Below, in pieces: positions 6,751-62,300 of a stretch of DNA of 64,000 nt. The position numbers were made by a program, and so were the translations under genes. Position 1 is the stretch's first letter; each line of letters starts with the position of its first letter. This stretch comes from Octopus vulgaris. Its lineage: Eukaryota. The stretch is taken from NCBI GenBank assembly GCA_951406725.2, contig OX597816.1, positions 129,952,001 through 130,016,000 on the forward strand. The letters are read 5' to 3'. Below the pieces are notes generated by a model. The model had not been told where the DNA came from. It ran no database searches and saw nothing but the letters and a program-made list of their open reading frames with translations.

Positions 6751-7562
6751 ATAGTTGCATTTGATTTGAGGAATATCATGCTGCTATTTCAGGGAGGCCT
6801 AGCAACCATGTAGAGCATCTCAACCACCCACCCCACCCGGCTGCTTCATTGGTTTAAAGTGTTTGTCATGATTGTTGTAAGTGAGGATGGAAGCATTAAT
6901 GATGGTTGCAGCTCTAGAGGTGTGAGATGTAATGATATGTGTAGTATTACACCTGACGGCAGCGGTGATGTTGGTGGTTTCAAAGTTGGCTTACAGAAAA
7001 TAGATTGAAGCTGCGAACCGCCAGCTAAAATTTCAGTCAAAGTGATAAAGCTGGAAAACGTGCTAAATATGATATCGTGATTCACACCTTAGCAGCAGGT
7101 CTCTAGGAGGCTGCAATGAAGAAGCTTAGAGTTCCACTTATGATAACATTTATGTAGAATGTTATATCAGATTTTGTTGCACCTTTGGTGGGTAAGACTG
7201 CCAATAAAATACTCTAGTTCATTTCACTATTGATAATTGTTTAATTAATTAATAATAAAAGAAGCTACAATCCATGTGAGCGTTTTTAGTGACAGAATTT
7301 CCATATAATAGTATCTATCTCAACACATGGCTTTATATCACGAATCTTACAACACAAATACAAAAACTAAATACAAAGTCTTAAATTTGACTGTAGAAGA
7401 CAATTAAATAGACCTCGAGTCACAAGATTTTTAAAAGTTTCAATACATAAAATATATATAAAATTTAAAAACCAAAAATATATTAGTTTTAACCCTACAG
7501 ACACTCCTTTAGGGAATTGGAAAAATTTAGATAACATTCTGAATGAGACGAATTCAATTGAA

Positions 7563-7599
<37 letters not shown>

Positions 7600-8746
7600 A
7601 TGATAAAATTTGTTACTCATGAAAGGCATTTTTTTTAATTTATTAGTTTGGTATGGAGAACGGGCTGTACCCATGACCATCACAAGCTCTCTAAGACCGA
7701 TGAGATTAATGCCTTTCACATGATCGTTATTTAACGTTCATGTTCCATGCTGTCATGGGTTGGACGGTTTTATAGGATCCGATGTGTTCAAGAACTGCAT
7801 CGTGCTCCGGTGTCCTTGCGTTCGTCAAAGATGCGTGTAAGTGATGAAAGTAGTTAACGTAGAGAGCTAGAGATAGTAAAAGATTCGGTTTCTGGACCGG
7901 AGCATCACTTTAGGAGAGGCCCAATAGTTAAGATTTACGATAATTGAAGTTACTGAGGACGATAACATCAAGGAACAGTAAAGTGTAATAGATGACCTAG
8001 ATACAGAAATACGAGAAATGATTAAAGAATTGGTAATGGTTCAAGGAGTTCTGAGAGCAGTAGAAGAAACAGATGTAGGGAAGATTTGAACCAGAGTCAC
8101 TGAAAGTCATTGTCGCTGATATCCAGAAGAGTGAGGTGGGTGGCGGGAAGAGTAGAAATTACTATGCACATACATCACCTTTCGTTGTTTGATAGGGTTA
8201 AGAATTTATATTTTAATGAAGAATAATAGGGTGTGTAGTTTGTATGTTGATAGGAGGTGATTTGTGATGGAAGGGTGGTCGACATCGAACTTTGTTCTGT
8301 TGCAAGCATTTGGATCGGGATTCCGATCAGTTTTTCAAAGAATACTTTGGTGATTATCTATCAGTGTTTCTCTCTTCATGTATTGGTGAGAACAACAACA
8401 ACAATAATACAAGAATAGAAGTACAAATGTTATGACACTTAAAACAGAATTTAGAAGATAGCAACAGAAGGAAAAGGAGACAGCAGGAAGTAACGACAAC
8501 AACAGTTTCTGCAAAGTCAATTAACTATTCTATAAATAAGTTTACCTTGTTTCAGTCATTGGACTGTGGCCAAACTGGGGCACTGCCTTCAATGGTTTAG
8601 TAGAATAAATCGATCCCAGTACTTACGTTTAAGTCTGGTACTATTTTCTTTTGAGGGTCTCTGTTACCGAAACCTAATGGGGACGTAAACAAATCAACAC
8701 CGGTTATCAAGCGGGTTAGGGGGTACACACACTCACACATACACAC

Positions 8747-8818
8747 GCATACATACATACATACATACATACATACATACATACATACATACATACATAC
8801 ATACATTCGTACGTACGT

Positions 8819-8857
<39 letters not shown>
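8747..8857. repeat. (CATA)n(CGTA)n(GT)n compound microsatellite
   Basis: Direct inspection. Confidence 0.95.
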
Positions 8858-8859
<2 letters not shown>

Positions 8860-9208
8860 CGATGGACTTCCATAGAGTTTGCAGCTCCCAAATTCACTTA
8901 CAAGGCATTGGTTGGCCCGGGGCGGGGTATAAAAAATATGGCAAAAATAGTTGGTCATGTGACTAAATCTACCGAAAACTAAAAAAATGATCGTCTCAGC
9001 TTCTGTAGTCTTGTAGTGTCATATAAATTTCTTAGTGTTACTTGTTAAGGTTATCTCTACAGATATTCTATAGAAATTATAAGCAGCACTGATTGTTGCT
9101 ACATTTCGTATACGAGGCGTCAGATGTAAACAAACAATGAGATCGAAGATAAGAAAAGGGTAATGGGTGTATGGTTGCATAACGAAATACCGCGTACCTA
9201 AAAATCAT

Positions 9209-9919
9209 TAGTTACCTCCGCCAAGGAAGAAGGTTATGTTTTCATTGACGTTGGTTTGTCCGTCTGTCCGTCTGTGTGCAAAATAACTCAAAAAGTTGCG
9301 AACGGTATTCGATGAAACTCGCAGGAAAAGTTGGTGATGACACAAGAAACAAGTGATGAAATTTTGGTAGTGATCCAGGAATTTTTATGGATTCTTGAAG
9401 GATTTTTCATTATATTTACTTTACATGAAGTATTACCGTTACGTTCTTTGTTTATCTCCCTTGAAAACACGTTTTATTTTCGTTTCTCTATAAGTAATTT
9501 TACTCACGTATCTATCTTACTGGAAACCGATGGATAAAGAGATCAAACTACATAAACAAACGGCGGCGAAACAGTTCAGAAGTTAAATGACACTAACATA
9601 TTCAAGGGTTTCTAAAAGCAGCAGCAGCAGAGGAGGAAGCAGTGGTAGCAACAACTGATGCTGAACCCTTGAGGGATGATTGATACTATACTGACCACAG
9701 AGGGATGTAAAGTAGGTAGGTAGATTTAGTTTGGTAAGGTTAGGATTAGGGTTTTTTTTTAATCATATGGCTGTGCTATTTTTTTGTTTTACCCCTTCCA
9801 AGAAGGTTATGTTTTTTCCGGCGTTGGTTTGGGAAATTGGGCGAATTTCAGCATGCGTGTATATGGGTAGAAATGAGCTGCTTGGCGGAGGTCTGCTCTC
9901 CCCGAGTGCTTTTCTAGTT
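9209..9919 (+). mobile_element. Non-autonomous Helentron-associated element (HINE/DINE-1-like)
   Basis: SubTIR ACCTCCGCCAAG (9214-9225) with inverted copy CTTGGCGGAGGT (9881-9892); (GTCY)n tract; short 3' hairpin; terminal CTAG (9914-9917). Confidence 0.75.
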
Positions 9920-23703: not shown

Positions 23704-26598
23704 CTGAAAAGAAAAGAAAACATATTTAGTATTTTCTCTCATCTCTAAAATAATTTCATCTTCATAACAAAAAGAATATGTTCAGAAACTGTTATTCATT
23801 TTATTAACTTGAATTTATCTTTGACTTTCACATATGGTGTAAATTTGGAGTTTTAATAACATTGTTAATTTATTTTTCCATGCTGGTATGTGTTGGACAA
23901 GAATTATTGAAGCAGTATCCTATGGCTGGGCATCCTTACTGTTGCTAATCTTACCCATATTTCAAGTTAGGTACTTTTATTTGACTTGTCTTCACATACT
24001 GAAACAGCCAAACATCGTCACTACCCAAATGGTGTCATGTGAAGACACGCAAAAATGAACATGCACACACACATACATGCATGTGTTTTTTTGTTTTGTT
24101 TTTTAATTAATTTGTCCCAAACAAGGCTTGCAACCACTATAGCTTAAGGGACTACAAAACAAACAAAAGATACAAGAAAAAAAAAGAAGAGGCCTACATA
24201 TTCAAAAGATGTTGATCAATAGAAAGCTTAAAGAAATGAATATCATAGGGCTGAAGAAAATAAAACAATGGTAGTAAGTTCCAGAGAACAGTAGTTGGAG
24301 GAAAGAAGCTATTAGAATTAAAGGAATTATGTTTAATAGGAAACCTGATAAAGAAATGATATGACTGGAAGGTGGTGAGCTGGCAGAAACGTTGACATGC
24401 TGGGTGAAATGCTTAGCAGTATTTCGTCTGCCGTTATGTTCTGAGTTTGAATTCTGCCGAGGTCGACTTTGCCTTTCATCCTTTCAGGGTCAATAAATTA
24501 AGTACCAGTTATGAACTGGGGTCGATATAATCGACTTAATCCCTTTGTCTGTCCTTGTTTGTCCCCCTCTATGTTTAGCCTCTTGTGGGCAATAAAGAAA
24601 TAAGAAATATGACTGGAAAGTAACAAGAGGCAGGTAACAAGTTTAAAGGTCCTGACAGAGGGTACCAGGTGAGAAATACCATCAGAGCAATGATCACTGA
24701 AATACTTATAGAAAAGATACAACAAAGATACATTTCGATGATGAGCCAAAGACTCCAACCTAGCAAAAAGAAGAGGACTGACCATGTTAACAACACAATT
24801 CTGATTTTGATCAAGCAAGTTATTAAGGTTACCAGAGGAGGCACCAGCCCAAAAATGACAGTAATATTCAATGTAAGGTTGAATGGTGGCCTTATAGGGA
24901 TTCAAGCTATTTTCAGGCATTAGAAATTTGTGAGCATGGAAAAAAGATCCAACCTTCTTAGCAGATGACATGGCAATAAGCTGAACATATTTGTTCCAAA
25001 AGAGATCCTTAGTCCAGGTCAAACCAAGAAGTCAGACACTATAGCTTTCTGCAAGATCAACCCTCTCCATAGCAACAAACACACACACACACACACACAC
25101 TACATCACATATATAACAGGTTTCAGTACAGTTTCCATTTACCAATTTTTACTCCCAAAATATTGGTCAGTCCAAGGAGGCTATAGTAGAAGACACTTAC
25201 TCAAGGCGACATACAGTGGGATAGACCTTAAACCATGTGGTTATGAAGTAAACTTTGTTACCAATAGCCATGCCTGTGTAATGTATGTAGATGATATAAG
25301 CTGCATATATAAACTGTATACTAATATTCTAATCCTTACCTGTTTTTTAAGCTCTTTTGTTTCACTCCGTAAGGCATCAAGTTTTGGTTGTAGCTCTCCT
25401 TCTTCTCTTTGAGCTTCTTGTCTTCTCCTTGCCATTTCCTTTTCTTGAAAGACCATCTTATCTGCCAGAATCAGGTTTTGTCGTAAACTCTCTTCCAATC
25501 TTTCAACATACCTGAAAAATAATGAAACATTGTTTATTCCTCAGCTACTTTTATAAACTTAGACTAAATATAACGAGTACTGTTGGAAGAATGATTGACA
25601 CAGGGATAAGCTGGCACTATCAAAGATCAAGTAGAGCAGGAAGTAAAAACACTAAGCACATAAAAGTGACAAGAGCCTAAGAGGTGGAATATTGGTGTAA
25701 TAATCCAATCTATATCCCAATTTATATGAATGTAAGGCAATGAGGTGGCAGAATCATTAGCATGCTGGGTGAAATGCTTAGCGGCATTTCATCTATCTTC
25801 ATTTCAGTTCAGATTCCGCTGATGTCAACTTTGCCTTTCATGCTTTCAGGATTGATAAAATAAATACCTTGTTGAGTACCAGGGTTGATGTAATTGACTT
25901 GCTCCCACATTAAAAAATGCCGGCCTTGTGCCAAAACTTGAAATTAATTTATATGAACAGGTGAATGAGAATAAAAATAGATATACTTCCTATTTCACAG
26001 TTGTACAACTTCCACCAATATAACAAGATGAAGATGATATCTGGATTGTGTAATCAAAATCTTTTAGGATATTCTCTAAAACCTAGAAACATTTTCTCCA
26101 TATATATTCCACTGTTCCTGACTTGTTTTTTTTTCTAATTAAAGATTATCAATGTCCTTCAATTTTGACACTAACTCCACACTCTTATACAACAAACACA
26201 TGATATTATAACTATATTTTTGTTGATTGAATTTCTTAGATAATTTTTACCTTGCTGAAGTTTCTGTGACATACAGAACTACAGAATATTGTCCTGATAT
26301 TTACACCATACACAAATTTTTTTCACCATCTTAAGCAGAACCTATTATGTAACATCACAACGACGATTTTACATAAGGTAGATAACTCTACCATATGTCG
26401 AATTGTCTCTATTTACTTTTTCACTTGAGAGCAGATAGAGTTTTCAGGTAATATGGTGAATATTTTATTCTAAAGAAATACCTTTTAGGTGAAATGAATC
26501 TTTGTCGTTAGCTAACTTAATATATGGTTTTAGCATCTAATTATAGGAAACTAACAGAGATAAAAATACAAATTTCAAGATTAAAGTTTGATTAAATA

Positions 26599-37900: not shown

Positions 37901-40900
37901 TGCAACTAAGCATTTTGGCCAACACGCTAATGATTCTGCCAGCTCACCATAATATTATTGATAATTAGAGAGGTAATAGATAAATGGATAACCTTTTCAA
38001 TCTGTTGACATCTGGCAATTTGACGTTTCAAATCTGGAATTTCATAATTTACATTTCTGGACATGATTTGGCCTGATTCAGCTGGTTAAATATTAAAATA
38101 AAAAAGAATATAGTATCAATTATCAACATAAGCAAATAAATTGCTTATAAAATCAACAATTATTAATTTTAAGGAACTGAAAGTTTTTGTTTCTATTTTT
38201 CATTTTAAAAATTACAAAATACTGAAAAGGTTTGTTTTTAATCAAAAGATTTAAGAAAGATAAAGCATAAATTATGCAAATAAGATAATTATCATCACCT
38301 TTTAATGTTGTTTTCCAGGCCAGCATGGGTTGGACATAATGAAAACACACTACATCCCTGGGTGGGCTTGAACCACCAACCTTTCAGCTAGCAGCTCCAC
38401 ATGCTAACTGACTGCACTACGGAGCTACATTCTAACAATGATTTAGCAAACTTTCTATGAAGTCAGTACAATTTCTATAAAAATAGTATCCTGCAAGAAT
38501 CCTTGAATTTGAGACATTATTAAAAATTTTATGAAACACAAAAATATTAATAAATAGCGAGGTGTTACTGTTCAACTTACCTAAATATAAGTTATTCTTT
38601 TCATATAAATTTAAAATTTCTGACCATGCCTAAAAGCAAAATAAATAATAATAGTAACTTCTCAGATTGAGACAGGTTACACATAGAGAAAAGTATAGAC
38701 AATTGAAAGAGTCACAGTATGAAGCTGATAGCTATTTTAACATAACTGGAGGGATGAAAGGCAAAAACAAACTATTGCAATGTAACAGTAATAACAAAAA
38801 AACAAAGAAGAGAAAATCAGGCAACATATTTGCTCAACCTGCTAGAAATTGCAGTCAAATTTCCCTTAATTCATACCCTTTCTCCTTAAGGAAAGGGAAA
38901 GGCATACAAAATAATGTACTTCTATATGCCTTTAAAAAAACAGGCTGATCACTGCTGGACGCATGTTATTTAAGGTTAAATAACAAGAACAATAATATTA
39001 ACAGTGATCAAAGTATAAATGTCTTTTTTTTTTTTTAAAGGTTCAAATCCCACCAGTTTGACTTTAATGCCTTTAGAAATCAATAAAAATAAGTGTTAAT
39101 GATATATTGGATTTAGTTTCGTGGTGGGATATAAACCACAAGTTTCATTTAAAAAATCACAAAAAAATGCTCCATAAAGTGGCAGCAAGAAAATGAGATT
39201 GTCATGACTTAAATACCTTTAGTCATAAGGCTGACCTAAACAACAATAACTGCAACAACATAATAAAGTGACAACACAATAACAATAAGTGTTTCTAATA
39301 TTAGTTTCAAATTCTTGGCACAAGGCCAGCTATTTCGGGGAGGGGCTAAGTCAATTTCAACAACCACAGTGATCAACTGGTACTTATTTTATTGTCCCTA
39401 AAAGGATGAAAAGCAAGTCACTCTCAGAACATAAAGATAGACGAAATACCAAAAAGCATTTCGCCCAGCATGCTAACGATTCTGCGAGCTGGCTGCCTTT
39501 CAAGTGTTTCTAATATTGATACAAGATCACAAATTTGTAGAGAGAGAGCAACTATATAATTGACTTTTGTGGTAAAAAGTTTGCTTCCCAGCCACATTGG
39601 TTATGTGTTCAGTCCCACTGTGTGACACCAAGAGAAAGTGTCTTCTTTTAAAGCCCAAGGCCAACCAAAGCCTTGTGAGTGGATTTAGTAGATAGAAACT
39701 GAAAGAAGCCCATTGCATGCAGATGCACATGCATGCATGTGTGTGTGTGTGTTTTACTATCCCTTTGCCTTAACAGCAAGGCAAGTGGTATCTGTCATTA
39801 CCAAACTTCCATGAAAACATGTCTGGTGACAGGGAAATACTACCTTGGGAACAGGTGGGGGTTGGTAACACGAAAAACATCCCGCTGTAGAAAATCCACC
39901 TCTACAAATTCTGTCTGATCCAAACAAGTATGGAAAAGTGGATGCTAAAACAACAATGATGATGATGATGATGATCCTGAAGAAAATTAAATGTGTAAGT
40001 CAACAATGTTGGGATTTCAACACAGAACATAACTAAATACAGTATGGTACTAAGTTCACTTCACTAGCAATTCTGCTTTCTGTCATCTTTAAAACAACAC
40101 TATCAAAATGAAATTTTTTAAAAATCACCTTAGTTAATTCATTTGAATATTGTCCTAGGATGTTCTTCTTTCCTGACTCTGAGTCTTGAGACAATAATGA
40201 CATTATTTCCTTCACATGGAAGTAAGTGATTTCTTGTAATATTACAAATGTCACCAAGAAAGAAAAAAAAAAGAAATAAAGAGAAAAAACATTTAATATA
40301 TAATTGATCCTGATTAAACATTTATGAAAGAAATTAATTTCCTGGAATATTACTTCAATGAAAATTATCGTGATTATCAGGTCATTAAGAATAAAATGTC
40401 CAATTTTCTTATGCACCAAGTTGATGGTTCTTTGTTTTACAACATTGAAGAGTTACATCATCACTCTTCAAAATGCAGTTCATGGTATCTGATTATATTG
40501 TGAGTTTTCTCTTGTAAAATCAATTTTTGTGAACCCATAGATAGATTAAAAATTCATGTTGTTTATGAATCTGAGTTCCATCATAGAATCAATGCATCCC
40601 AGACAGCTTGAAACATCAATGAGGTGTTTCGTGAAGATGTGGTGAATGAGCGCACTGTACATCAATGGTTTGAGAAGTTCCAGTCTGGTGACTTCACTCT
40701 TGAAAATCATGCCCATGGTAGACCTGAGACCAAGGTGGATAATGATGAGCTGGAAACTGTAGTGGAAGTGGATACATTTCAAACTACATGTGAGTTAGCA
40801 GCAAAGTTTGATGTTTTGATTCCAACTGTATTGGACCATCCAAAACAAATCAGCTGAGTGTGGCTACTTTGAGTAAACTGTTATCTCCCAGCCATAATCT

Positions 40901-46287: not shown

Positions 46288-49200
46288 GTGATATGAATTT
46301 TTATTGAACTGTTAAAATATCTATTATATTCGTTCTTTCTCGTGTTATGAAGTATAAATACTTTACGTTACTTAATATATATGTAATTTACCTAATGAAA
46401 TTTGATTTACATCTTAGTTTAGAAATGAATCAATGAAGAAGCCTCTACGTGGTTATTTGACCTATTAGAAATTGCAGCACAATCTCCTTCAGATCACATT
46501 TATTTATCTTTTTAAAAAACGACAGCGTGTCATGTAAAACACTATATCGAGAAAAGTTGAGATTGTCACACCTGGAACGCAATTCATAATATATCTGTGC
46601 TATCTGTAGCGACCTGGGACGAAACAATTTTGTCGTAATAGTAAAGATTTCCTTTACGAAAAAGGAAATAATTGATTCAACTCAGATACAGACTACATTA
46701 TACCTTCACAAGATATCATAATACGCAGAAAGTTTTTTTTTTTTCCTATAGCTATATAATTGCTTACCAAACTCTAGTGAAGAACAAACACGATGTTGAC
46801 GAAGTAAGCGGATCCAATGAAAAGCTAAACAAAAAATAACCAAATGTAAATCATTCATATTATCCAAGATTCCTTTTTAAAATATTTTAATGACATAGCC
46901 ATGACCATAAAAACATAAAAATCGTATCTAATGAAGGCAGAACCACAGCGCAATTATTCAATGTACATAAACTAAGATCAACTTATTAGCAAACAAACAA
47001 CATGACTATATATATGTGTGTGTGTGTGTGTGTGTATATAAGTAGTGCATTTTGTTTGTTTTTCTCTTTTTTTTTCTTTCTTTTGAACTTTCGTTTTAAG
47101 ATAGTCTTTATGTTACCAACATTGTATAATATACAATAGATGTTTACTCTAAGTGTTTACTCTTTGTGCTGCATAAATGATAAGCACAAAAGATAGAAAT
47201 ATAGTTTGCTTTTACTTATTTATTCACAAGCACGTTCTCAACATATCGTATATCAGTAATAAAATTAGTCAAAGAGAAATAACAGCAACAAGTGAAAAAT
47301 AACAACTTTAAAAAAAAATAGATTGAATATTTCAAAGGATAGCTCTAATTCCATTGACTGAAGCTTATTATAAATGGAGAGACGGCGATGCTGAGCACTG
47401 GGGATCGATGCGGTCAACTTTCTTCCACCCTTTAACATTGCTGGCTTTGTGCCAAAATTAGAAAGAATTAGTGTTGGTTTCGAATTTAAGCACAAGGACA
47501 GCAATTTCAGGGGTGGGAGTAAGTCGATTATATCGACCCCAGTGGTCAGCTGGTACTTATTTTATCGACTTCGAAAGGATGAAAGGCAAAGTTGAATTCG
47601 GCAGACGAATTTGAAAAACATGTCTGGCCAATACTACCTTGCTTGTAAATATTTTGCCAGCTTACCACCTTACTAAAAATAATTATTATTGTTATCAAGA
47701 CGGTGAGCTGGCAGAACAGTTAGAATTCCGGGCAAAAATGCTTAGTGGCATTTCACCCGTCCGTATTATACGTTCTGAGTTCAAATTCCGTCAAGGTCGA
47801 CTAGGCGGCGAACTGACGGAATCGTTAACGCACCGAGTAAAATGCTTGGCGGCATTTCGTCTGTCTTTACGTTCTGAGTTCGAATTTCGCCGTGGCCGAC
47901 ATTTGCTTTCATCCTTTCGGGGTCAATAAAATAAGTACCAGTAGAGCTTTGGGGTCGATTATTTACATTTGACGGATATTTGTCTTCATCTTGTTTATTG
48001 TTAACACAACGTTTCGGCTGATATACCATCCAGCCTTCATCAGGTGTCTTAGGAAAATTTCGAACATGGGTTTTCGTTCCTAAGGTATTTTTCGATGTTG
48101 TTGCTGTTGTTATTATTATTATTATTATTATGGTCACTACCTGGAATCGAACTCGGAATCTTGGGGTTAAGAGCGCAGACTACTAACCCCAAAATTCCGA
48201 GTTCGATTCCGTCAATGGGTCACAACAAAAAAGTTTGACAAACGCAGGCTTAGAGCAATTGTCCACAAAGGTAGTATGTGGTCTCTGTTCAAAATTTCAA
48301 AAGGCTGCAGTGTGAAATGTATAAATATTCAGTTATATATATCTTTCAATAGGGAGATGAAACTGGGAAAATAAGTTTTGTTGATAAAATTGGCCTATTA
48401 AGAGGACAAAACTTTTAAAAGCCTGCGATCCATGGGAAAATTCATTCAAATAAAAAGACTCTTTGGTAGTAAGAAAAGTTGGGGACCATTGGCAGAGAGA
48501 CTTCCTGGCAAAGAGAAATGCCAAATGGCCGAGTTTTCTGTTCTGACACAAATATATACAAATATGTATGGGATAAGAGGACTGACCCTTCAGTTTTGCA
48601 TGGAGTTAGAGCTAAAAGAGGGTGGTCGAGGAGTCCTCTTATATTGGTGGGGACTTTATATGTCGTTTGTTGTTACAGAATGTTACTATATAAATATATT
48701 TCTGGTTTCTCACCATAAAGAGTATCATTATGGTGTATCATCAGACCCTAATATATATATATATATATATATATTTTATATGTATATATATATATATATT
48801 TAGCAGAAGTAACAGAGTAACTGAAGGCCCGAGAGTTTCGTGTGTTGGCACTTATCAAACTAGTTTGATAAGTGCCAAAGCACGACACTCTCGGACCTTG
48901 AGTCACTCTGTAACTTCTGCTAAATATTAATAAAGATATACATATACTCATATTTTGAGTTCTATTTGTCTATTTGTTCGACTAAAAACCCTTCAAAGTG
49001 GTGCTCCAGCATAGCTGTAATAAAATGACTGAAGCAAATAAAAGAATATATATTGAATTGTTAATCCCTACAAATTTTTTTCTCTCTTCGTTTTTTTTTT
49101 TTTACCCTCTCAGTCCTTTCTGTCAAAAAGCATAAGCTCAAAACATCAAAGACGTTTCCATTCTTCCCAAGCGTTAAATTAATACACCTACTTCTTGTTC

Positions 49201-59300: not shown

Positions 59301-62300
59301 GTGATGTCACTGGTGCCAAGCTAGATTGGCTTTACCAATATATTTGGATAACATCACTGGCATGGAGAGGGGAGGTTGGTATGCATGGACAACTGCTGGT
59401 TTTCTATAAACAGTCTTGCCCAGACTTGTGCCTAGGAAAGGAATTTTCTAGGTACAATCCATTCATGACTGAAGGGGGGTCTTTACCCTATGTTTTCCAA
59501 TAAACTCTGCTGAGTTATCCTTATTTTACTTTTTCCTTCTGAATCTTTCAAATGATAAAGGTAATTTATGGATACCCTGTATATTTTGTGGTTTTCCTTC
59601 TAAAATCAAGCTTAATTTTTTTTATTTATATTCTTGTTTATTTTGTATTCTCTAGTAAACCAGCATGGAAAGATGGCTCCACTGCAACAGTTGTATTAGC
59701 AATAAATGATACCTTGTACATATCCAACTTAGGAGACAGCAAGGTAAATTATTTTCAAACTCTCATCATCCTTTCATTTACATGACATTATTTTCAACCT
59801 CAGAAAATAGTTTTATTATAATTGAGGAAAATTAACCATTGTTAATTTAATTACAACAAAATGTTAAGTAAATTTATTTTGCTTTTACATTATACAATAC
59901 AATGTTGAATTCATTTTCTTTTACTTAATATTCTTGTGGGCCCTTTAAAAATATCATGAACTTGTATTTATATCTTACTTTCAGGCAATATTATGTCGAT
60001 ACAAAGAAAATACTCAACAGTATGTAGCAGTACCACTAACTACTGAACACCACCCTACTGTTTATGAAGAAAGAATGCGAATTCAAAAGGCTGGAGGCCA
60101 TGTTAAGTAATATATCAGATTTAATCTGAAATATTTATTGGCAAACCCTCTTTTTATTACTTTTTTATTTTGTTAATGTTTCTTTTTATACTTTAAAGAG
60201 ATGGTCGTGTGATGGGTACTCTAGAGATCTCTCGCTCCCTAGGAGATGGACAATATAAGAATCATGGTGTCATCTGTGTACCTGATGTTAGGAAATGCCA
60301 GCTAACTGACAATGATCGGTAAAAATACTCCATTTTCTTTTCTAAATTGCATTGAAAAATATTAAATAGGAGAGATAATTAGAATTATATATTAGTAAGT
60401 ATTTTATAACTAATACAGTTCTATATTTGGGAGATGAGGAATTATTTACATTTGACGGATATTTGTCCTCATCTTGTTTGTTGTGAACATGTTTCAGCTG
60501 ATATACTCTCCAGCCTTCATTAGGTGTCTTGGAGGTATTTCAAACCTGGGTTCTTGTTCCTCAGGTATTTTTTGATGTTATTCTTTTCTACTCTAGGCAC
60601 AAGGCCTGAATTTTTTTTTGGGGGGGGCAATCAATTAGATAGACTCCAGTATGCAACTGGTACTTAATTTATCGACCCTGAAAGGATGAAAGATAATGTT
60701 CACCTTGGCAGAGATTGAACTCAGAACATAAAGACAGACGAAACACTGGTAAGCATTTCGCCCAGCGTGCTAACATTTCAGCCAGCTCACCGCCTTTCAC
60801 TCTCTGAAATCAAGCTCAATTCCAGGCAGTGACCTGAATAATAATGACGACGACGATGATGATGATGATGTCATCGTTGTCATCGAAAAATACCTTAGGA
60901 ATGAGAACCAAGATTCAAAATTTCCCCAAGACACCTGACGAAGGCTGGAGAGTATATCAGCTGAAACATGTTAACAACAAACAAAATGAGGACAAATATC
61001 CGTCAAATGTAAATAATGTATTTTATAACTGTATATTTTTTTGGTTATTTTGTACAAGGTCACTTGACTGAAATAAATTAAATTGCCTAATGATATAATA
61101 AAATTATACATAGAAGAATTAGCAGCCAGAACTCCTATAAATTTTAAGACATACACATTGAATAACGTAGTCCTAGATACACTTTGTGTGAAAAAAATAT
61201 TAAGAACAGGCTTGTAAGGTTGAAACACTAATAGTTCAGTTCAATCAGGGCTGACCTGAGATTAAACATCAATAAATATATATATATGTTATTTTGGTTT
61301 ATAAAGATTTAAATTCAACCATTTGCTAATTTTTTTTCCATTTCATCTTCAACGTTAATGAGAAAATCGGTTTTACTTTTAGCAGAAGCAAGATATTACT
61401 AATTTCAATATCTTATCAGGGGAAAAAAAAATCCAAAACAACATGGAATAATACTGGACACTTGCTGTTAAACTTAATGGAATGAATCTGTTAAAAGTAT
61501 ACATCAAGATTTTATTTCAATATATAGTTAGTAGTCATTTTATGAAAAACACTGACCTGTTTATAAAATAATGAATCATATAAGAATGCAGTGAAATTCA
61601 GAAATTTATAATGCTGTAAGGGGGAGAGACTAATGTTTCGAGACACTTTTTGTCTGAGAAAAAACATTTTTTTTTCTTCTTAGTCTATCCAAAAACTTAA
61701 GATTTACTCTTAATTTCAATTTAAAGATAGATATCAAAGAATAGAAATTTAAACTTTATTCCAAGTTCATCTAAATATTCCTTAAACAGAGAGATATTGA
61801 ATGGGTTTACTAACTTACCTTTATTTAATCATTCTTTTTTCTGACTTAGCTATTTCATCACTTCAGACACTCTTAAAGAAATTACATTTCTATGTCACAT
61901 ATCTTGTTTTATCATTTATATGAATCCACTTCAAAAAAATTCATTACCCAGAATATCCATAATGACTTTAAATCTCTTGTCTTACAGATTTTTTATCATT
62001 GCTTGTGATGGACTTTGGAAATCTTTAACTCCTGAAGAATGTATCCAGTTTGTTTGCAATGTTTTAGAGGTAAATTTCAGGCTATTCCATTTCTATGAAA
62101 CTAGTTTATATTTCTTTTACCTCAATATTTTGTTAAATGAATCTCTGAAAACTGAGATCTGTAACCCAAATCTAACACTTAGGCACGATTTTCCTTGCCT
62201 CACAGATCACACTTCAGGAAAGACATTTATATACTTGAATAAATATAGTTACATCCATATCCTTGACAAACAAATATTTAGTCTTGGAAAGAAGATCTAA

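What the first reader, a model, noticed from the sequence alone, without database searches (positions are those of the whole stretch)
47960..48210. SINE-like element that fuses a tRNA-derived Pol III head to a Penelope-type hammerhead ribozyme
Seen, on the minus strand: TAACCCCAAGATTCCGAGTTCGATTCC (B box), then (AAT)n, then an 8-bp stem CTTAGGAA/TTCCTAAG, then a complete minimal hammerhead, GACAC CUGAUGA A GGCUG..CAGCC GAAA CG UU^GUGUU (48048-48003). The same module order recurs near 60810-61017 and the tail recurs at 60441-60577, so this is a dispersed family. The head is duplicated in inverted form (27-bp arms, 1 mismatch). Known: minimal hammerheads with a palindromic stem III that cleave as dimers typify Penelope pseudo-LTRs and retrozymes, whereas SINE tails normally come from LINEs. 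Inference: a Pol III-transcribed, self-cleaving, non-autonomous retroelement mobilised by Penelope RT/GIY-YIG, in effect a SINE/retrozyme hybrid. I cannot confirm that it is undescribed.
Basis: partly seen in the sequence, partly recalled or inferred. Interest (0 to 1): 0.85.

Follow-up and report, generated by a model that had tools for sequence, protein, structure and literature searches.

The report
Penelope terminal repeat with tRNA promoter
The repeat is the stand-alone terminal repeat of a Penelope-type jumping gene, present at an estimated tens of thousands of places; it carries a tRNA-derived segment that likely works as an RNA polymerase III promoter, and a minimal hammerhead motif lying inside the first codons of the element's own reading frame.

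Summary
Observation confirmed; interpretation needs revising. The unit (tRNA-Arg-like head, (AAY)n, minimal hammerhead, tail) is not a SINE fused to a borrowed tail. It is the pseudo-LTR of an autonomous Penelope/Poseidon-type element. All 30 loci picked by that element's GIY-YIG frame carry the head just behind the stop codon. The 'tail' is the first ~55 codons of its ORF, with the hammerhead in codons ~11-25. About 35,000 insertions are estimated (10 in 800 kb), mostly ORF-less. Head-to-head pairs show Penelope marks: the 3' extension on one arm only (35 of 36) and exact 10-14-bp TSDs (21 of 36). Pol III drive is inferred: A and B boxes intact in the family, 60 of 98 heads start at tRNA +1, and no T4 run in the 2.45-kb majority ORF. 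One other Penelope family is also T4-poor, and RNA-seq shows only read-through. Self-cleavage, tandem arrays and circles are unsupported. tRNA-SINE plus hammerhead is known from schistosomes; a tRNA head inside an autonomous Penelope pLTR was not found in my searches.

The parts
48165..48210 (+). Inverted partial copy of the tRNA-like head (head positions 17-62; B box, no A box); includes the 27-bp arm 48184-48210
48132..48169 (-). 3' half of the tRNA-Arg-like head with B box (48152-48143); A box missing in this copy
48097..48131 (-). (AAT)n(AAC)n linker of variable length between head and ORF start
47958..48096 (-). pLTR body = 19-nt leader plus first codons of the Penelope ORF (start codon at 48077-48075, ACG in this copy); the optional ~35-40-bp extension is absent
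48003..48048 (-). Minimal type I hammerhead without helix III, core intact; predicted cleavage between 48008 and 48007; read in frame as T-P-D-E-G-W...P-K-R-C-V
   Evidence: definition from PMC4209133
60399..60411 (+). Left copy of the 13-bp target-site duplication of the second (two-arm) insertion
60415..60582 (-). Inverted arm of the second insertion: pLTR body (60444-60576, hammerhead core damaged) plus the one-sided extension (60415-60443)
60813..61017 (+). Forward arm of the second insertion: head remnant (60813-60837), linker, pLTR body (60882-61017, 3-nt loss in the core), no extension
61018..61030 (+). Right copy of the 13-bp target-site duplication

Best explanation
The sequence is a truncated solo pseudo-LTR of a Penelope/Poseidon-type retrotransposon, bearing that family's insertion marks, and its tRNA-Arg-like head likely serves as an internal Pol III promoter for both the full element and the short copies. 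Shown: in the autonomous element the order is ORF stop, 33-nt spacer ending in a GCCC-NN-GGGC hairpin, tRNA-like head with A and B boxes, (AAY)n, ATG, hammerhead in codons ~11-25, rest of the ORF (RT, C-terminal GIY-YIG). Insertions are often head-to-head pairs with a 10-14-bp TSD and the extension on one arm only. Inferred: transcription starts at the head; in a pLTR-ORF-pLTR copy it runs through a T4-free ORF, and in a solo pLTR it gives a ~300-nt SINE-like RNA that the element's RT/endonuclease re-inserts in trans. Inferred: the hammerhead can pair as a dimer in cis only in full-length RNA, which has two sense copies; in solo copies it is mostly an uncleaved passenger or recognition structure.
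For: Head 33 nt behind the stop in most, and within 120 nt in all, of 30 ORF-selected loci; pLTR body within 600 bp in 24 of 30. Tail and extension translate in frame into the ORF start, 45% identical over 260 aa to an 847-aa RT protein P0132 that keeps the hammerhead-footprint peptide. Full-length copy L363; partial tandems L381, L395. One-sided extension 22 of 22 and 13 of 14; exact TSD of 10 bp or more 12 of 22 and 9 of 14, versus 0.65% of 462 mismatched flank pairs. Same marks are described for Penelope in PMC3846280 and PMC8557442 (passages). Head: best match tRNA-Arg, 47 of 73 nt, z 9, among 20 G000 tRNAs. 60 of 98 head-bearing arms start within -12..+3 of tRNA +1, against 9 in the next 28 nt upstream and 7 further up. 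No T4 run in the column-majority 2.45-kb ORF (shuffle mean 4.1, P 0.007; same result on 5 references); natural copies 0.32 T4/kb against 3.8 and 2.7 in two other Penelope families.
Against: No direct sign of Pol III transcripts: 85-86% of RNA-seq reads run on into unlike flanks, both directions equally, with no start or end pile-up (organism B, apparently unstranded 150-nt library). A third Penelope family with no head found downstream of its ORF is also T4-poor (0.46/kb over ~1.2 kb). Synonymous-codon shuffles give no significant T4 deficit, and Phe TTT avoidance is significant in 1 of 5 overlapping segments. The pile-up at +1 coincides with a hairpin, so RT stalling or snap-back explains it as well. 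No sequence variants separate solo from ORF-linked pLTRs beyond a selection-biased column 58, so independent amplification of solos is not shown. How an uncapped Pol III RNA would be translated is open. No intact ORF seen (longest open frame 569 aa among 150 hits).
Confidence: 0.55

Rival explanations
1. Same identity (solo pLTR of the Penelope element), but the tRNA-like head is a passenger: a tRNA retrocopy or SINE with an (AAT)n tail that landed in the pLTR. The element is transcribed by Pol II or by read-through, and the short copies are just 5'-truncated products that stop and fold back at the GCCC-NN-GGGC hairpin.
For: Head plus (AAT)n looks like a complete SINE insertion. Junction palindromes and self-priming are described for Penelope (PMC3846280). 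The two characterised PLE promoters are internal, with an intron (PMC8557442). RNA-seq shows read-through only. One head-less family is T4-poor too.
Against: A and B boxes and their 45-nt spacing are kept and sit exactly in promoter position, about 100-150 nt before the ATG. Zero T4 runs in 13 runs of three or more T, against 26 of 80 in three control ORFs (Fisher P 0.017).
Confidence: 0.33
2. One reading: an independent SINE/retrozyme hybrid whose RNA self-cleaves as a dimer, circularises and is re-inserted.
For: Core intact in 42 of 52 top hits and 20 of 39 unselected arms. 7 of 61 truncated arms start at columns 90-92, just behind the cleavage site, and 11 of 61 in columns 84-93 (P 0.04). 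Precedents: Sm-alpha/Sj-alpha and retrozymes as non-autonomous PLE derivatives.
Against: The head is part of the autonomous element. 1 direct tandem in 108 clusters. 172 arms are full length across the cleavage site. No end pile-up in RNA-seq. No compensatory changes in helix II, and one in helix I, among 91 copies. The window at 84-93 was chosen after seeing the data, and two of its arms share one junction.
Confidence: 0.08
3. An ordinary LINE-mobilised tRNA SINE with a chance hammerhead-like motif.
For: Rfam finds no hammerhead.
Against: All min-HHR features of PMC4209133 are present; ORF linkage, one-sided extension and inverted pairs are Penelope marks.
Confidence: 0.02

Closest known systems
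Penelope/Poseidon EN+ Penelope-like elements (Arkhipova et al. 2013, PMC3846280, passages; Craig et al. 2021, PMC8557442, passages)
   Same: RT plus C-terminal GIY-YIG with the two inner cysteines and no CX2-5CxxC linker; pLTR that includes the first codons of the ORF; inverted 5' copy with palindromic junctions; optional 30-40-bp tail on one end; TSD; hammerhead in the pLTR.
   Different: The pLTR begins with a tRNA-derived A/B-box segment, where the described promoters are internal with an intron or TATA/Inr-like. ORF-less pLTR copies dominate (ORF sequence at 1 of 10 random loci).
Minimal hammerheads (min-HHR) of metazoan PLEs (Cervera and de la Pena 2014, PMC4209133, parts 1-2 of 4 read)
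   Same: No helix III, 5-bp helix I, extra base before G10.1-C11.1, palindromic 15.2-16.2, mostly dispersed single motifs.
   Different: Here it is read in frame as protein and lies behind a tRNA head. That paper found no monomer cleavage and weak dimer cleavage; nothing was assayed here.
Schistosome Sm-alpha / Sj-alpha SINE-like elements (passages in PMC2770079, PMC6765202, PMC8490949; original papers not held)
   Same: tRNA-derived, Pol III-type promoter followed by a type I hammerhead; tens of thousands of copies.
   Different: Sm-alpha is described as tandem, with an active hammerhead freeing units from multimers; no autonomous partner carrying the head is described in those passages. This family is dispersed, inverted rather than tandem, and part of the partner itself.
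Animal non-LTR retrozymes (PMC7761336 passages; Li, Clavereau and Pollet 2026, 10.64898/2026.07.22.740005, parts 1-2 of 5 plus term search)
   Same: Non-coding hammerhead-bearing units related to pLTRs and thought to use PLE enzymes.
   Different: Defined as tandem repeats giving circular RNA; the preprint has 0 occurrences of 'tRNA' or 'Pol III'. No arrays or circles seen here.
Non-autonomous Chlamys PLEs such as MRC1 (PMC8557442, passage)
   Same: Short PLE derivatives sharing the 3' end with an autonomous family.
   Different: No tRNA head reported in the passages read; most Chlamys lack hammerheads.

Membership tests
Penelope/Poseidon PLE (pLTR of) | Linked single ORF with RT and C-terminal GIY-YIG | tested here: met
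   frames align to aa 18-846 of P0132 (RVT_1 E 5.7e-11; Pfam GIY-YIG only E 0.23 and nothing on the L213 piece); motif read directly: YSIPCSCG..YKGET.
Penelope/Poseidon PLE (pLTR of) | Two cysteines inside GIY-YIG, no CX2-5CxxC linker finger | tested here: met
   By inspection of translations against the definition in PMC8557442; other G000 families do have the linker.
Penelope/Poseidon PLE (pLTR of) | Direct pLTRs flanking the ORF, pLTR overlapping the ORF start | tested here: met
   L363 full length; L375, L381, L395.
Penelope/Poseidon PLE (pLTR of) | Inverted 5' copy, 30-40-bp tail on one end, TSD | tested here: met
   One-sided extension 35 of 36; exact TSD of 10 bp or more in 21 of 36. 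The focal copy itself shows no clear TSD.
Penelope/Poseidon PLE (pLTR of) | Hammerhead in the pLTR | tested here: met
Penelope/Poseidon PLE (pLTR of) | Placement in the clade by RT phylogeny | not tested
   No named reference sequences were at hand; the clade is assigned from motifs only.
Penelope/Poseidon PLE (pLTR of) | Internal promoter with intron in the pLTR | not tested
   Described for two elements; not examined here.
tRNA-derived SINE | tRNA-related head with A and B boxes | tested here: met
   47 of 73 nt to tRNA-Arg(TCT), z 9, best of 20 G000 tRNAs covering only 6 isotypes; box consensus recalled; ARAGORN/Rfam negative. Focal copy lacks the A box.
tRNA-derived SINE | Pol III transcription | tested here: inconclusive
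   Indirect only; RNA-seq shows read-through.
tRNA-derived SINE | Head not shared with the autonomous partner (only the 3' tail is shared) | tested here: not met
   30 of 30 ORF-selected loci carry the head.
tRNA-derived SINE | Amplifies as its own lineage | tested here: inconclusive
   60 of 98 heads start at +1, but no clean diagnostic variants.
Animal non-LTR retrozyme | Head-to-tail tandem units each with a hammerhead | tested here: not met
   1 direct tandem (L212) in 108 clusters.
Animal non-LTR retrozyme | Circular RNA joined at the cleavage site | tested here: inconclusive
   No end pile-up; no same-strand joint at the site among the 15 joints shown, 147 not shown.
Animal non-LTR retrozyme | Self-cleavage in vitro | not testable with these tools
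   Weak indirect hint: 7 of 61 truncated arms start at columns 90-92.

The most novel reading that the evidence does not exclude
An autonomous, protein-coding Penelope retrotransposon that is transcribed by RNA polymerase III from a tRNA-derived promoter in its pLTR, keeps its 2.4-kb ORF free of T4 terminators, regulates its own mRNA through a dimer-only hammerhead that cuts inside codon 24, and sheds solo pLTRs that are ready-made SINEs: a route to SINE birth that needs no head-tail fusion.
Probability: 0.4. Interest if true: 0.82.

Novelty: new variant of a known kind. Interest (0 to 1): 0.66.

Why it matters
How Penelope elements are transcribed, and what their hammerheads do, are open questions (PMC8557442). 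This family puts a tRNA-type promoter, the start codon and the hammerhead in one 300-nt testable unit. If Pol III drives it, it is a protein-coding transposon on Pol III and a SINE that arises directly from its partner's terminal repeat. It also warns that automated libraries would file such pLTRs as SINEs. The inverted-pair insertions are ready-made long hairpins in host RNA and look A-to-I edited.

Tried and rejected
Rfam and ARAGORN: no hammerhead or tRNA hit on the element. Partner hunt: Pfam GIY-YIG found young Neptune-like families with other hammerheads and (TA)n-flanked ends, none sharing the tail; two further families likewise; a Neptune-based profile missed the true partner in loci that held it. 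It was found through the shared upstream sequence of loci. PDB sequence search with the Neptune ORF: 0 hits. Covariation within the family is uninformative (star-like decay, 4.4% from column majority). Paired arms share few private variants (0.63 vs 0.29, P 0.016, driven by the window pair), so copying of one arm from the other is not shown. An MFE co-fold of two hammerheads did not give the catalytic dimer; MFE is a poor test. The upstream 8-bp stem was rejected as a family feature. Literature: 10 searches found no tRNA-headed autonomous PLE or PLE-mobilised tRNA SINE. The Ferbeyre 1998 and Lunse 2017 papers are not held, Repbase/Dfam and the Zenodo library of PMC13282606 could not be searched, and bioRxiv supplements are closed, so the family may exist there as an unlabelled SINE or Penelope entry. 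An earlier count said 14/15 and 9/15; the recount is 13 of 14 and 9 of 14.

Full report
Observation. The hammerhead has a 5-bp helix I, CUGAUGA, an extra A, a GGCUG/CAGCC helix II and GAAAC-GUU with no helix III. This matches the minimal hammerhead defined for Penelope-like elements (PLEs) in PMC4209133 (parts 1-2 of 4 read), where monomers did not cleave and dimers cleaved weakly. Rfam and ARAGORN see neither head nor hammerhead. The perfect 8-bp stem depends on a T present in 10 of 91 copies. This copy lacks the A box on both arms.

Family size. The exact hammerhead pattern occurs 2,090 times in G000 (2.8 Gb) and the head pattern 1,394 times, with 0 control hits each. Eighty 10-kb stretches taken at fixed round coordinates held 10 insertion loci, about 35,000 genome-wide (Poisson range roughly 17,000-64,000). 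Copies differ 4.4% from the column majority, a figure biased low by selection. Head and tail are linked: 17 of 24 new tail-selected loci have a forward head directly upstream, and 12 of 16 head-selected loci have the tail downstream. Complete heads carry TGGCGTAGTGG and GTTCGATTCC 45 nt apart (A and B box consensus recalled) and match tRNA-Arg best, 47 of 73 nt, z 9, among 20 G000 tRNAs of six isotypes.

Insertion marks. Many insertions are head-to-head pairs. A 35-40-bp extension lies on exactly one arm in 22 of 22 pairs of a first set and 13 of 14 of a second. Exact flank repeats of 10-14 bp occur in 12 of 22 and 9 of 14, against 0.65% of 462 mismatched flank pairs. Pairs whose second arm ended short were not counted. 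The window's 60415-61017 stretch is one such pair, with a 13-bp TSD and a different SINE between the arms. Inverted pLTRs, junction palindromes, a one-sided 30-40-bp tail and TSDs are described for Penelope in PMC3846280 and PMC8557442 (passages). A direct tandem was seen once (L212) in 108 clusters.

The partner. Several Neptune-like and other PLE families in G000 did not share the tail. Loci then showed a shared sequence upstream of the head that translates to a GIY-YIG C-terminus. All 30 loci selected by this protein carry the head within 120 nt of the stop, nearly all at 33 nt, and 24 of 30 the pLTR body. Conversely, the 'tail' and its extension are the start of the same ORF: natural copy L208 reads [33 protein letters not shown], and other copies continue in frame into the ORF. 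They are 45% identical over 260 aa to P0132, an unnamed 847-aa RT protein from another source that keeps the peptide TPDDG...PKRCV. The hammerhead thus occupies codons ~11-25 and would cut inside codon 24. L363 is a full-length decayed copy; L381 and L395 are partial tandems. Motifs fit the Penelope/Poseidon clade (definition); no tree was built. No intact ORF was seen among 150 hits. ORF sequence was found at 1 of the 10 random loci. The finding is therefore a solo pLTR.

Mechanism. In a pLTR-ORF-pLTR copy the head sits where the promoter must be. Three indirect results favour Pol III. The boxes are intact in the family. 60 of 98 head-bearing arms in ORF-unselected loci start within -12..+3 of tRNA +1, 22 inside the head, 9 in the spacer and 7 in the ORF. 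The column-majority ORF has no T4 run in 2.45 kb (shuffle mean 4.1, P 0.007; all 5 references; 0 of 13 against 26 of 80 runs in controls, P 0.017), and natural copies have 0.32 T4/kb against 3.8 and 2.7 in two other families.

Against this reading: a third family is also T4-poor (0.46/kb); codon-preserving shuffles show no deficit; the +1 peak coincides with a GCCC-NN-GGGC hairpin that could stall RT; and no clean variants mark a solo lineage. RNA-seq of organism B (about 6% of three runs) gave 6,800-9,245 reads each, in both directions equally, 85-86% running into unlike flanks, with no start or end pile-up. That is read-through, in a library poorly suited to short Pol III RNA.

The hammerhead. 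The core is intact in 42 of 52 top hits and 20 of 39 unselected arms, without informative covariation. 172 arms span the cleavage site in full. Of 61 arms truncated inside the body, 7 start at columns 90-92, just behind the site (11 in columns 84-93, P 0.04, window chosen afterwards). That is a weak hint of occasional cleavage. Only full-length RNA holds two sense hammerheads, so dimer cleavage in cis would concern the autonomous mRNA, where it would remove the start codon (inference).

Comparison and novelty. A tRNA-derived Pol III repeat with a hammerhead is known: schistosome Sm-alpha/Sj-alpha (passages in PMC2770079, PMC6765202, PMC8490949), described as tandem. Retrozymes as non-autonomous PLE derivatives are proposed in a 2026 preprint (parts 1-2 of 5 and term search; no 'tRNA'). 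Ten searches found no tRNA head in an autonomous PLE. An octopus repeat annotation (PMC13282606, parts 1-2 of 3 and its supplement searched) lists Penelope and SINE families; the parts read describe none like this and the supplement has no 'hammerhead', but its library is not visible. Other papers were seen as passages only (PMC10886601, PMC6962438, PMC7761336, PMC9977147). The host is probably an octopod, from recalled likeness of the flanking SINE; not tested. Three unchecked scan notes on other animal genomes report tRNA-bearing non-coding elements with Penelope insertion marks; they are leads that the tRNA-PLE link may recur, not support.

Verdict. Real, abundant and mechanistically informative: a new variant of Penelope pLTR rather than a new class. 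Identity as a pLTR about 0.9; Pol III role about 0.55; full novel case 0.4. Interest 0.66.

Noticed in passing
L208:1345-1640 with runs X21-X23: RNA reads show 32-35 A>G and 24-28 T>C variable places, against 4 and 3 in contigs of X16 and 8 and 6 among G000 copies: likely A-to-I editing of the inverted-pair hairpins. No matched DNA; organism B also has its own transversion variants.
   Followed up: partly
L091:2245-4587 and L092-L102: Very young Neptune-like PLE with an intact 781-aa ORF in many near-identical copies, ending at (TA)n, with a U3-A8-type hammerhead-like motif.
   Followed up: partly
L242-L270: Abundant PLE family (14,433 candidates) with a hammerhead-like motif whose CUGANGA box is altered (CTGT[TC]GA) about 110 nt before a (TA)n end.
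   Followed up: no
L221-L240: Older PLE family (4,993 candidates) with no hammerhead seen and a T4-poor ORF end (0.46/kb); worth checking for a Pol III element.
   Followed up: partly
window 47700-47957 (-) and about 15 other places, e.g. 24370-24526, 60656-60795: A very abundant different SINE flanks the focal copy and lies between the arms of the second insertion; recalled as octopus OR/OK type.
   Followed up: no
window 48048-48085 (-): The stem-loop upstream of the hammerhead has, in most copies, the outline stem / GAACC-CA-GGTTC / GAAA-TTT-C, like a second, core-less hammerhead; speculative.
   Followed up: no
L006, L009, L016, L017, L019, L024, L288, L297: pLTR copies often join at the (AAT)n tails of other repeats, suggesting microhomology at the linker.
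   Followed up: no
window 38353-38426 (-): Weak tRNA-like match, 27.9 bits, below the Rfam cut-off.
   Followed up: no
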